This document shows, piece by piece, positions 37,866 through 38,103 of a stretch of DNA of 64,000 nt; the first letter of the stretch is position 1; every line of letters begins with the position of its first letter. The position numbers were made by a program, and so were the translations under genes. The notes under the pieces are model-generated. The model was not told the DNA's origin. It saw nothing but the letters and a program-made list of their open reading frames with translations, and searched no databases. Location of the stretch: the NCBI RefSeq assembly GCF_045037415.1, contig NZ_CP173438.1. The stretch is one strand, 5' to 3'. This DNA is from Escherichia coli (GTDB taxonomy: Bacteria; Pseudomonadota; Gammaproteobacteria; Enterobacterales; Enterobacteriaceae).

Positions 37866-37912
37866 AGCCCATCCTTTGTTATCAACTTGTTATTTGCGTT
37901 GATAAAGACAAA

Positions 37913-37927
37913 GCAATGGGTGTGCCA
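37913..37927 (-). promoter_or_regulatory. Sigma-54 (-24/-12) promoter for prpBCDE: TGGCAC-N5-TTGC on the minus strand
   Basis: Plus strand reads GCAATGGGTGTGCCA; prpR encodes a sigma-54 activator (GAFTGS, ESELFGH-type motifs). Confidence 0.6.
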
Positions 37928-38103
37928 CAATTGCCTTAATAAAATTAAACATTTAATTTCAATGAGTTAAAGATAAATTCATGAAGTAATCCGCAAATAT
38001 GCGTTTCAGTTAACGTTTCAGGCAATGTTTCACCGCGTTTCATTGCAACAATTATGAAACAAGACTAAACCCAATATTCGGTTTCTTAACTTTGCGGTGC
38101 GCT

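What the first reader, a model, noticed from the sequence alone, without database searches (positions are those of the whole stretch)
37866..38103. Intact sigma-54 promoter for prpBCDE facing a disabled activator
A near-consensus TGGCAC-N5-TTGC element sits about 50 bp upstream of prpB on the minus strand, and the downstream prpBCDE genes are full length. So the structural operon and its promoter look functional while the dedicated activator prpR appears broken, a pattern expected early in pathway decay or in a strain that regulates prp differently.
Basis: partly seen in the sequence, partly recalled or inferred. Interest (0 to 1): 0.3.

Follow-up and report, generated by a model that had tools for sequence, protein, structure and literature searches.

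The report
Known prpB promoter; activator frameshift likely artefact
The interval holds the well-known sigma-54 promoter of the E. coli propionate operon, and the "broken" activator gene beside it is most likely a nanopore sequencing error at a methylated DNA motif, not a real mutation.

Summary
TGGCACACCCATTGC lies at 37913-37927 (-), 47 nt upstream of the prpB ATG. prpBCDE are full length. The prpR reading frame is broken by one extra A at 39403/39404 (codon 434).

The promoter is already known. It is the ortholog of the sigma-54 ChIP-seq site at prpB in K-12 and Salmonella. A TGGCAY-N5-TTGC element sits upstream of prpB in 79 of 80 loci from Escherichia to Janthinobacterium, with clustered TGAAAC hexamers further upstream.

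The pathway-decay reading is not supported. The extra A turns GAGACC into GAGAACC, exactly at the adenine that the ST131 Eco31I-type methylase (M1.EcoMI) modifies. Against finished ST131 genomes, all 4 indels in about 104 kb fall inside 4 of the 8 Eco31I sites, each at or next to a modified base. They break prpR, betB, ecpR and a GTPase gene. The indels are scattered among near-identical assemblies from different countries rather than inherited. The nearly identical strain Esc14 encodes both methylases intact.

The frameshift is therefore most likely a nanopore consensus artefact (about 85-90%). Read-level data would settle it. Low interest; modest value as a data-quality warning.

The parts
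37913..37927 (-). Sigma-54 (-24/-12) promoter element of prpBCDE, TGGCACACCCATTGC. GG falls at -25/-24 and GC at -13/-12 if +1 is about 37901.
   Evidence: It is the only match in the window. It differs from K-12 GTGGCACACCCCTTGCT by one spacer base, and that K-12 site is sigma-54 ChIP-seq peak OS01 (PMC4591121). The Salmonella ortholog TGGCATAGCCTTTGCTTT was found by ChIP-chip (PMC3844500). A site is conserved in 79 of 80 loci.
37901..37901 (-). Predicted transcription start of prpBCDE (inferred, plus or minus 2 nt).
   Evidence: Inferred from the usual geometry of sigma-54 promoters (GC doublet at -13/-12). Not measured here.
37866..37905 (-). prpB leader. It has an 8-bp stem (TTATCAAC / GTTGATAA, 37879-37886 and 37898-37905) and the Shine-Dalgarno AAGGA at 37872-37876.
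   Evidence: Inverted repeat I5. RNA fold -6.6 kcal/mol, z = -2.7. Identical in K-12. Function not tested.
37930..37990 (.). AT-rich spacer between enhancer and promoter; candidate IHF bending region.
   Evidence: IHF-consensus matches with one mismatch at 37943-37955, 37946-37958 and 37957-37969. The IHF requirement is known for Salmonella prpBCDE (review PMC5566544). The exact site is inferred.
38003..38060 (.). Candidate PrpR enhancer (UAS). It holds five TGAAAC hexamers, including the palindrome GTTTCAT-N10-ATGAAAC (38037-38060), 81-133 nt upstream of the -24 element.
   Evidence: Five hexamers lie in 58 bp against 0.04 expected from the window-wide frequency. All five are invariant between the window and K-12. 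Hexamers cluster upstream of the sigma-54 element in the 80 related loci. Binding was not tested.
36975..37865 (-). prpB, methylisocitrate lyase, 296 aa, intact.
   Evidence: NCBIfam equivalog NF008455, 560 bits against a cut-off of 353. PGAP product WP_000052198.1 in identical DNA.
35646..36815 (-). prpC, 2-methylcitrate synthase, 389 aa, intact.
   Evidence: NCBIfam NF009006, 720 bits; WP_001285906.1.
34161..35612 (-). prpD, 2-methylcitrate dehydratase, 483 aa, intact.
   Evidence: NCBIfam TIGR02330, 926 bits; WP_001275894.1.
32235..34121 (-). prpE, propionate-CoA ligase, 628 aa, intact.
   Evidence: NCBIfam TIGR02316, 1305 bits, residues 1-628 on profile positions 1-628; WP_000010274.1.
38104..39691 (+). 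prpR, 1588 nt instead of 1587. The first frame ends at 39453 (449 aa). The remaining C-terminus, with [10 protein letters not shown] and the HTH, is intact in the next frame.
   Evidence: PGAP flags it as 'frameshifted' in identical DNA of Esc14 and UID2309220015.
39400..39406 (+). GAGAACC where 641 genomes with the same flanks have GAGACC. The extra A sits at the m6A position of an Eco31I/EcoMI site and is the cause of the prpR frameshift.
   Evidence: Methylation of GAG(m6A)CC in ST131 is documented in PMC4659465.
57333..57339 (+). A second GAGACC-to-GAGAACC insertion, in betB, which splits that gene into ORFs 56700-57422 and 57376-58176. It serves as a companion control site for the artefact argument.
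   Evidence: It is absent from Esc14, which otherwise equals the window over 15043-64000. It is present in strains 447, 439 and Esc20.

Best explanation
Window 37866-38103 is the ordinary divergent control region between prpR and prpBCDE of an ST131-type E. coli. On the minus strand it carries the known sigma-54 promoter of prpBCDE: GG/GC elements at 37913-37927, a predicted start near 37901 and a 36-nt leader. Upstream lie an AT-rich stretch, presumably bent by IHF, and then a cluster of five TGAAAC hexamers (38003-38060). PrpR, once it has bound 2-methylcitrate made from propionate by PrpE and PrpC, is inferred to assemble on that cluster and use ATP to open the sigma-54 closed complex. All of these parts are intact and match those of strains with an intact prpR. 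The apparent inactivation of prpR is most likely not biological. It is a one-base consensus error made when nanopore reads were basecalled across a GAGACC site that this lineage methylates on both strands with its Eco31I-type enzymes: GAG(m6A)CC by M1.EcoMI and GGT(m5C)TC by M2.EcoMI. The organism therefore most probably has an intact, normally regulated prp system. Shown here: the sequence features, their conservation, the association between the motif and the indels, and the presence of the methylase genes. Taken from the literature: sigma-54 occupancy, the roles of PrpR, 2-methylcitrate, IHF and CRP, and GAGACC methylation. Inferred: the TGAAAC cluster as the PrpR binding site, the position of the transcription start, and nanopore sequencing as the source of the error.
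For: Promoter:
- There is a single exact TGGCAC-N5-TTGC in the window, correctly oriented, 47 nt from the prpB ATG.
- It differs by one spacer base from the K-12 site that is a sigma-54 ChIP-seq peak and an EcoCyc promoter. The orthologous Salmonella site was found by ChIP-chip, and prpBCDE there is 45-fold sigma-54 dependent.
- 79 of 80 prpB loci from 10+ genera have TGGCAY-N5-TTGC a median of 49 nt upstream of prpB. The opposite strand and shuffled sequence give 0.
- TGAAAC hexamers number 2-8 per 400-nt upstream region, against about 0.2 expected.
- The literature states that PrpR, 2-methylcitrate, sigma-54, IHF and CRP are required.

Artefact:
- Against the finished ST131 genome SK1144, the 64 kb window shows 7 SNPs and only 2 indels. 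Both indels are GAGACC to GAGAACC, and the region has only 4 Eco31I sites.
- In 17 kb more of Esc14 the only indel is GGTCTC to GGTTC, in ecpR.
- In 23.4 kb of Esc14 against EC958 the only difference of any kind is GAGACC to GAACC, in a GTPase gene.
- In total, 4 of 4 indels in about 104 kb hit 4 of 8 sites. By my arithmetic, uniform placement would give about (48/104429)^4, roughly 5e-14.
- Three of the four changes fall on a modified base: the two extra A's on the m6A, and the ecpR deletion on the m5C. The fourth, in the GTPase gene, removes the G next to the m6A.
- EC958 methylates 100% of GAGACC sites. Esc14 encodes both methylases with proteins identical to those of EC958.
- The distribution does not follow descent. 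The prpR insertion occurs in 2 of 643 same-allele genomes (Esc14 and a Bangkok isolate). The betB insertion occurs in three others (two from Taiwan, plus Esc20) and not in Esc14. The window and Esc14 differ over 49 kb only at that betB base.
- Nanopore consensus errors are known to concentrate in methylation motifs that were missing from basecaller training data (PMC6591954).
Against: No read-level data or sequencing-platform metadata could be reached, so the use of nanopore sequencing for these assemblies is inferred, not shown. Two assemblies from apparently different laboratories share the identical prpR insertion, which a real inherited allele would also produce. ST131 is too clonal for 64 kb to show whether those two strains are sisters (3 SNPs between them). 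No paper in the held library reports Eco31I-site indel errors specifically. The PrpR binding site, the IHF site and the transcription start in this strain are inferred. The key primary papers (Palacios 2000 and 2004, Lee 2005, Suvorova 2012) could not be read.
Confidence: 0.85

Rival explanations
1. The extra A is real: a very recent, private loss-of-function allele of prpR in a small ST131 sublineage. The truncated 449-aa product lacks part of the AAA+ lid (including the [10 protein letters not shown] segment) and the whole DNA-binding domain. The intact sigma-54 promoter then stays silent, prpBCDE cannot be induced, and the strain cannot grow on propionate.
For: The frameshift is in the sequence, and PGAP calls the gene a pseudogene in two assemblies. 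The truncated product loses AAA_lid_14 and HTH_8. The promoter and operon are identical to those of strains with intact prpR, as expected for a very recent event. Split prpR reading frames also appear in three other species' reference genomes (not verified).
Against: The insertion lies at the methylated adenine of one of only four Eco31I sites in 64 kb, and every other indel examined lies in such a site too. The sister indels are distributed in conflict with descent. The allele occurs in 2 of 5426 complete genomes and on one contig in a 15-billion-protein collection. In a published precedent, frameshifts in prpE, acs and cobB of an E. coli draft genome disappeared on Sanger resequencing (PMC7360682).
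Confidence: 0.1
2. Eco31I sites are genuine mutational hot spots in these strains, producing real recurrent 1-bp indels at the modified bases. This might follow disruption of the restriction gene by the CTX-M-15 module seen in Esc14. On this view prpR, betB, ecpR and other genes are truly and repeatedly knocked out.
For: The strict association between motif and indel and the recurrence in unrelated isolates are what a hot spot would also give. The Eco31I endonuclease gene of Esc14 is clipped at its 3' end by a resistance module.
Against: I know of no mechanism by which m6A or m5C produces 1-bp indels; m5C deamination gives C-to-T changes. Eco31I cuts outside its recognition site (PMC4659465). 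Half of the sites being mutated in one genome, while hundreds of ST131 genomes with the same system keep them intact (641 of 643 at prpR), is implausible for a real process and typical of a platform or basecaller effect.
Confidence: 0.03
3. The frameshift is real but harmless. The truncated PrpR, or a frame-restoring event during expression, still activates the promoter, so regulation is merely altered.
For: Enhancer-binding proteins without a DNA-binding domain can activate from solution. DctD250 raised Salmonella prpBCDE 45-fold (PMC3844500).
Against: Those active truncations keep the whole AAA+ module. Here the cut is at residue 433, inside the lid. The AAA+ module aligns to residues 217-458/462 of PspF, NtrC1 and ZraR structures, and the lid is at 399-462. 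The conserved [10 protein letters not shown] at 444-453 is lost. There is no slippery run at GAGAACC to support recoding.
Confidence: 0.02

Closest known systems
E. coli K-12 prpBp, the sigma-54 promoter of prpBCDE (EcoCyc promoter; sigma-54 ChIP-seq peak OS01, Bonocora et al. 2015, PMC4591121)
   Same: Same locus, same orientation and same distance to prpB. The 17-mer GTGGCACACCCATTGCT differs from the K-12 GTGGCACACCCCTTGCT at one non-conserved spacer base. The leader and the TGAAAC cluster are identical.
   Different: Eight substitutions across the 238-bp intergenic region, mostly in the AT-rich spacer. No functional difference is implied.
[quoted passage not shown]
   Same: Divergent prpR. 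A sigma-54 promoter TGGCATAGCCTTTGCTTT about 48 nt from prpB. Requirement for PrpR, 2-methylcitrate, sigma-54 and IHF, with CRP control.
   Different: C versus T at the sixth position of the -24 element, and a different spacer. PrpR is about 81% identical.
Methylation-motif consensus errors in Oxford Nanopore assemblies (Dcm CCWGG errors, Wick et al. 2019, PMC6591954)
   Same: Errors that survive into the consensus, are confined to a motif modified in the sequenced strain, and recur across assemblies regardless of descent.
   Different: The motif here is the non-palindromic Eco31I site GAGACC/GGTCTC, which carries m6A on one strand and m5C on the other. The errors are 1-bp indels that create phantom frameshifts. 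I found no paper describing this motif as error-prone.
Eco31I-type R-M system EcoMI of ST131 (Forde et al. 2015, PMC4659465)
   Same: Esc14 carries M1 and M2 methylases with the same protein accessions as EC958. The target GAG(m6A)CC / GGT(m5C)TC is the sequence altered in prpR.
   Different: In Esc14 the endonuclease gene is shortened at its 3' end by an ISEcp1-blaCTX-M-15 / IS26 resistance module. That region lies outside the window.

Membership tests
Sigma-54 (-24/-12) promoter | GG and GC doublets exactly 10 bp apart within TGGCAC-N5-TTGC | tested here: met
   TGGCACACCCATTGC at 37913-37927 (-), 0 mismatches, the only match in the window.
Sigma-54 (-24/-12) promoter | Placed upstream of, and reading toward, the regulated gene | tested here: met
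   There are 47 nt to the prpB ATG, on the same strand. The median distance is 49 nt in 79 related loci.
Sigma-54 (-24/-12) promoter | Conserved across orthologous loci beyond what neutral sequence would show | tested here: met
   79 of 80 loci have a site with at most 1 mismatch. T, GG, A and TTGC are invariant while the spacer varies freely. There are 0 hits on the opposite strand and 0 in shuffles.
Sigma-54 (-24/-12) promoter | Occupied by sigma-54 holoenzyme and dependent on rpoN in vivo | not testable with these tools
   Shown for the orthologous sites in K-12 (ChIP-seq) and Salmonella (ChIP-chip, 45-fold rpoN dependence), but not for this strain.
Sigma-54 (-24/-12) promoter | Upstream enhancer for a cognate AAA+ activator, usually 80-150 bp away, often with an IHF site between | tested here: inconclusive
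   Five TGAAAC hexamers lie 81-133 nt upstream, with an AT-rich stretch and IHF-like matches between. Hexamer clusters are conserved in related loci. Binding was not tested, and the primary footprinting papers could not be read.
PrpR (NtrC-family enhancer-binding protein) | PrpR_N sensor domain plus Sigma54_activat AAA+ core with a GAFTGA-type loop | tested here: met
   PF06506 at 36-196 and PF00158 at 219-393. NCBIfam PrpR equivalog, 860 bits. The EGAFTGS loop is present.
PrpR (NtrC-family enhancer-binding protein) | Complete AAA+ lid and C-terminal Fis-type HTH in one reading frame | tested here: not met
   As the sequence is written, the ORF stops at 449 aa and lacks AAA_lid_14 and HTH_8, and the profile match ends at position 445 of 538. 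Both domains are encoded intact in the next frame.
Genuine pseudogene (inherited loss of function) | The disabling change is shared by a coherent clade and is independent of error-prone sequence context | tested here: not met
   It occurs in 2 of 643 same-allele genomes. It sits on the methylated base of an Eco31I site. Companion indels at other Eco31I sites conflict with descent.
Genuine pseudogene (inherited loss of function) | Supported by reads from an orthogonal platform | not testable with these tools
   No reads or platform metadata are available.
Methylation-induced nanopore consensus error | Errors concentrated in a motif that the sequenced strain methylates | tested here: met
   4 of 4 indels in about 104 kb lie in 4 of 8 GAGACC/GGTCTC sites. 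The motif is fully methylated in ST131. Both methylase genes are intact in Esc14.
Methylation-induced nanopore consensus error | The assembly derives from native-DNA nanopore reads without short-read correction | not testable with these tools
   The records give no sequencing method.

The most novel reading that the evidence does not exclude
The 1-bp indels at Eco31I sites are real. On this reading, doubly methylated GAGACC/GGTCTC sites act as a lineage-specific mutational hot spot in ST131 and repeatedly knock out genes such as prpR, betB and ecpR in parallel. The silent but intact sigma-54 promoter next to a dead prpR would then be one visible outcome. A tamer version is that only the prpR frameshift is real, as a private loss-of-function allele (about 0.1).
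Probability: 0.03. Interest if true: 0.7.

Novelty: already known. Interest (0 to 1): 0.15.

Why it matters
The promoter adds nothing new; it is the textbook prpBCDE sigma-54 promoter and the basis of the pPro vectors. The practical value lies in the caveat. In public "complete" ST131 genomes, single-base indels at Eco31I (GAGACC) sites appear to create phantom pseudogenes (prpR, betB, ecpR and a GTPase gene in the stretches examined) that annotation pipelines flag as frameshifted. Anyone reading such flags as metabolic decay, or counting them as variants in outbreak typing, would be misled. A filter based on the strain's own methylation motifs would catch them.

Tried and rejected
- Primary papers on the promoter architecture (Lee 2005, Palacios 2000, Suvorova 2012) are not held. 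I relied on reviews and ChIP papers instead.
- The sigma-70 promoter and terminator scan of 37800-38200 found nothing, not even prpR's own promoter.
- A CRP consensus search with up to 3 mismatches found no site in the intergenic region. The reported CRP site could therefore not be placed.
- Rfam found no RNA family in the intergenic region.
- The IS1 in strains E24 and E25, which first looked like a second route to prpR loss, lies in yahO, and prpR is intact there.
- The "two-piece, 34 kb" match suggested a 10 kb deletion in the window. A direct alignment showed perfect collinearity.
- I first took the window to be strain Esc14, because the exact truncated protein sits on one contig of Esc14's length. 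It differs from Esc14 at the betB site, so it is a nearly identical but distinct sequence.
- A literature search for prpR frameshifts in ST131 found nothing specific.
- Programmed frameshifting was rejected: there is no slippery sequence.
- Activation from solution by the truncated protein was rejected: the AAA+ lid is cut.
- An EcoPI (AGACC) phage methylase was considered as the cause before the ST131 methylome paper pointed to Eco31I/EcoMI.

Full report
**What is there**

The window is an E. coli chromosome of the ST131 type. Positions 15043-50500 are 100% identical to strain Esc14 (NZ_OZ369269.1). Dozens of ST131 genomes match the prp region at 100% apart from one base.

The gene order is:
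- prpE 32235-34121 (-)
- prpD 34161-35612 (-)
- prpC 35646-36815 (-)
- prpB 36975-37865 (-)
- a 238-bp intergenic region, 37866-38103
- prpR from 38104 (+)

The finding's interval is exactly that intergenic region.

**Checking the observation**

TGGCAC-N5-TTGC occurs once in the 64 kb, at 37913-37927 on the minus strand (TGGCACACCCATTGC), with 47 nt between its last base and the prpB ATG. The pattern alone is not rare: 0.25 matches are expected per window, and 20 of 100 shuffles give a hit. The case therefore rests on context.
- The four structural genes are full length. Each matches its NCBIfam equivalog end to end and far above the cut-off.
- PGAP gives them ordinary protein accessions in the identical Esc14 DNA.
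- The prpR frame is interrupted. Translation from 38104 runs for 433 native residues, then 16 foreign ones, then a stop at 39451-39453. The remaining C-terminus continues in the next frame.

**What the promoter is**

It is the known prpBCDE promoter.
- The K-12 ortholog GTGGCACACCCCTTGCT differs from the window at one spacer base. It is intergenic sigma-54 ChIP-seq peak OS01 and is marked as an EcoCyc promoter (PMC4591121).
- The Salmonella ortholog TGGCATAGCCTTTGCTTT is a sigma-54 ChIP-chip site, and prpBCDE there is 45-fold rpoN dependent (PMC3844500).
- Reviews summarise the mechanism. PrpE and PrpC convert propionate to 2-methylcitrate. This co-activates PrpR, which drives the promoter together with sigma-54 and IHF. 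CRP acts on both divergent promoters (PMC5566544; PMC9452892).

To test conservation directly I fetched 80 prpB loci from one genome per species: Escherichia, Kluyvera, Citrobacter, Salmonella, Pseudocitrobacter, Shimwellia, Xenorhabdus, Photorhabdus, Morganella, Providencia, and the betaproteobacteria Janthinobacterium, Massilia, Duganella and others.
- 79 of 80 have TGGCAY-N5-TTGC, with at most one mismatch, 39-189 nt (median 49) upstream of prpB.
- There are no hits on the opposite strand or in shuffled sequence.
- T, GG, A and TTGC are invariant, while the five spacer bases vary freely.

**Anatomy of the region**

If the GC doublet is at -13/-12, the start is near 37901 and the leader is about 36 nt. 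The leader has an 8-bp hairpin at its 5' end (-6.6 kcal/mol, z = -2.7) and an AAGGA Shine-Dalgarno at 37872-37876.

Upstream of the -24 element lies an AT-rich stretch (37930-37990) with three one-mismatch IHF-consensus matches. Beyond it, at 38003-38060, are five TGAAAC hexamers, including the perfect palindrome GTTTCAT-N10-ATGAAAC. The window-wide frequency predicts 0.04 hexamers in such a span. All five are invariant between the window and K-12. The related loci carry 2-8 hexamers each, clustered about 110-190 nt upstream of the sigma-54 element.

I take the hexamer cluster to be the PrpR enhancer. This is an inference from position and conservation, not a binding test. The intergenic region is 100% identical to that of strains with an intact prpR, such as SK1144.

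**The 'disabled activator'**

Compared with SK1144, the window's prpR has one extra base: GGGATTAGAGACCTG becomes GGGATTAGAGAACCTG at 39403/39404, in codon 434.

If the insertion were real, the 449-aa product would keep PrpR_N and the Sigma54_activat core. It would lose AAA_lid_14 (399-462 in the intact protein), the conserved [10 protein letters not shown] (444-453) and HTH_8. The AAA+ module aligns to solved PspF, NtrC1 and ZraR structures up to residue 458-462. The truncation therefore cuts into the ATPase itself, and activity from solution is unlikely. If real, the allele would be a null.

**Why I do not think it is real**

1. The allele is extremely rare.
   - Only 2 of 643 complete genomes that share the 61-bp flanks carry the extra A: Esc14 and UID2309220015, a blood isolate from Bangkok.
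   - The exact truncated protein occurs on a single contig among 15 billion proteins.
2. The sequence context is specific.
   - The insertion converts GAGACC to GAGAACC. GAGACC is the Eco31I site.
   - Forde et al. showed that ST131 strain EC958 carries an Eco31I-identical system (EcoMI) on GI-leuX. They detected GAG(m6A)CC at 100% of sites and predicted GGT(m5C)TC on the other strand (PMC4659465).
   - The extra A is therefore a doubling of the methylated adenine.
3. The other indels behave the same way.

   | Comparison | Aligned length | Differences | Eco31I sites |
   |---|---|---|---|
   | Window vs SK1144 | 64,000 bp | 7 SNPs, 2 indels | 4 |
   | Esc14 vs SK1144 (next collinear stretch) | 17,016 bp | 2 SNPs, 1 indel | 2 |
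   | Esc14 vs EC958 | 23,413 bp | 1 indel, nothing else | 2 |

   - Window vs SK1144: both indels are GAGACC to GAGAACC. One is in prpR. The other is at 57336 in betB, which is thereby split into two ORFs.
   - Esc14 vs SK1144: the only indel is GGTCTC to GGTTC, loss of the methylated C. It lies in ecpR, which PGAP flags as frameshifted in Esc14 but not in SK1144.
   - Esc14 vs EC958: the only difference of any kind is GAGACC to GAACC, in a GTPase-family gene that is again flagged as frameshifted.
   - In total, four of four indels in about 104 kb lie inside four of the eight Eco31I sites. Uniform placement would give about 5e-14 (my arithmetic).
4. The distribution contradicts descent.
   - The window equals Esc14 over 15043-64000 except for the betB base.
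   - The betB insertion is absent from Esc14 and UID2309220015. It is present in strains 447 and 439 (447 is a blood isolate from Taiwan) and in Esc20. Strains 447 and Esc20 are 100% identical to the window over 8 kb around betB and have betB flagged as frameshifted.
5. The methylases are present. Esc14 encodes both Eco31I-family methylases with the same protein accessions as EC958. The system occurs in 634 of 5426 complete genomes.
6. The error type has a precedent. Systematic nanopore errors that survive into the consensus are documented to concentrate in methylation motifs that were absent from basecaller training data (PMC6591954). Frameshifts in prpE and other genes of another E. coli draft genome vanished on Sanger resequencing (PMC7360682).

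**Limits**

I could not see reads or platform metadata, so nanopore sequencing as the source is inferred. I found no paper that names the Eco31I motif as error-prone. A real private frameshift remains possible (about 10%). A real motif-directed hot spot is much less likely (about 3%).

**Comparison with what is known, and novelty**

- The promoter is a member of the sigma-54 class and is the ortholog of K-12 prpBp. The sequence-level defining features were tested and met. In vivo occupancy is known only for the orthologs.
- prpR as written fails the single-frame architecture test for PrpR, but the missing domains are encoded intact one frame over.
- The combination of an intact promoter and a dead activator is therefore best filed as an assembly artefact laid over an already known system.
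- There is nothing new biologically. The useful by-product is the observation that Eco31I-site indels generate phantom pseudogenes in public ST131 assemblies.

**Verdict**

- Observation: confirmed.
- Interpretation: partly supported (promoter yes, decay no).
- Novelty: already known.
- Interest: 0.15.

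Noticed in passing
window 57333-57339 (betB, ORFs 56700-57422 and 57376-58176): betB is frameshifted in the window by an extra A in a GAGACC site, the same change as in prpR. The change is absent from Esc14 and UID2309220015 and present in strains 447, 439 and Esc20. It is probably the same kind of sequencing artefact.
   Followed up: yes
Esc14 NZ_OZ369269.1 around 930328 (L091 position 12228, ecpR) and around 1416966 (L098 position 31967, GTPase-family gene): Two more PGAP 'frameshifted' genes owe their frameshift to a 1-bp deletion inside an Eco31I site: GGTCTC to GGTTC, and GAGACC to GAACC. Both lie outside the window.
   Followed up: yes
Esc14 NZ_OZ369269.1 1394982-1407536 (L098 9983-22537): A chromosomal ISEcp1-blaCTX-M-15 / Tn3 / IS26 / aac(6')-Ib-cr / blaOXA-1 / truncated catB module sits between the Eco31I-family endonuclease gene and the two methylase genes. 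The endonuclease gene has its 3' end clipped (1671 nt against 1740 nt in EC958). The methylase genes are intact. This may leave methylation without restriction.
   Followed up: no
window 32065-32141 and 32159-32235 (-): Two tandem copies of the naRNA4 / REP325-type element (Rfam RF02564, 68 and 70 bits) lie immediately downstream of prpE. The second copy abuts the prpE stop codon.
   Followed up: partly
window 42673 (yahK) compared with UID2309220015: UID2309220015 has an extra A in an AA run (CCGAACGG to CCGAAACGG), and yahK is flagged as frameshifted there. The window has the intact form. This indel is not at an Eco31I site.
   Followed up: partly
window about 40800-41050 (yahM; L004 25860-26104): yahM is annotated as frameshifted in Esc14, UID2309220015 and the finished SK1144 alike, so this one is a lineage-wide feature and not an assembly-specific error.
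   Followed up: no
L057 (Providencia stuartii NCTC11800), L073 (Morganella psychrotolerans DSM 17886), L074 (Providencia rettgeri RB151): tblastn with PrpR gives two overlapping segments in different frames next to an intact prpB and a good sigma-54 site. These are possible prpR frameshifts, either real or assembly errors.
   Followed up: no
L039, L040, L047, L048, L050-L054, L058, L059 and L080 (Janthinobacterium), upstream of prpB: These loci have a perfect sigma-54 element and 4-8 TGAAAC hexamers upstream of prpB, but no PrpR homolog within the 2.6 kb fetched upstream. The activator gene must lie elsewhere.
   Followed up: no
window 37879-37905 (-): The first 27 nt of the predicted prpB leader form an 8-bp hairpin (TTATCAAC...GTTGATAA; -6.6 kcal/mol, z = -2.7) that is identical in K-12. 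One arm also gives a perfect IHF-consensus match, TATCAACTTGTTA, at 37880-37892 (+).
   Followed up: partly
first 400 nt of prpB in 7 of the 80 related loci: A TGGCAC-N5-TTGC-like site with at most 1 mismatch also occurs inside the prpB coding region in 7 loci. I did not check which taxa these are or whether the site is conserved.
   Followed up: no
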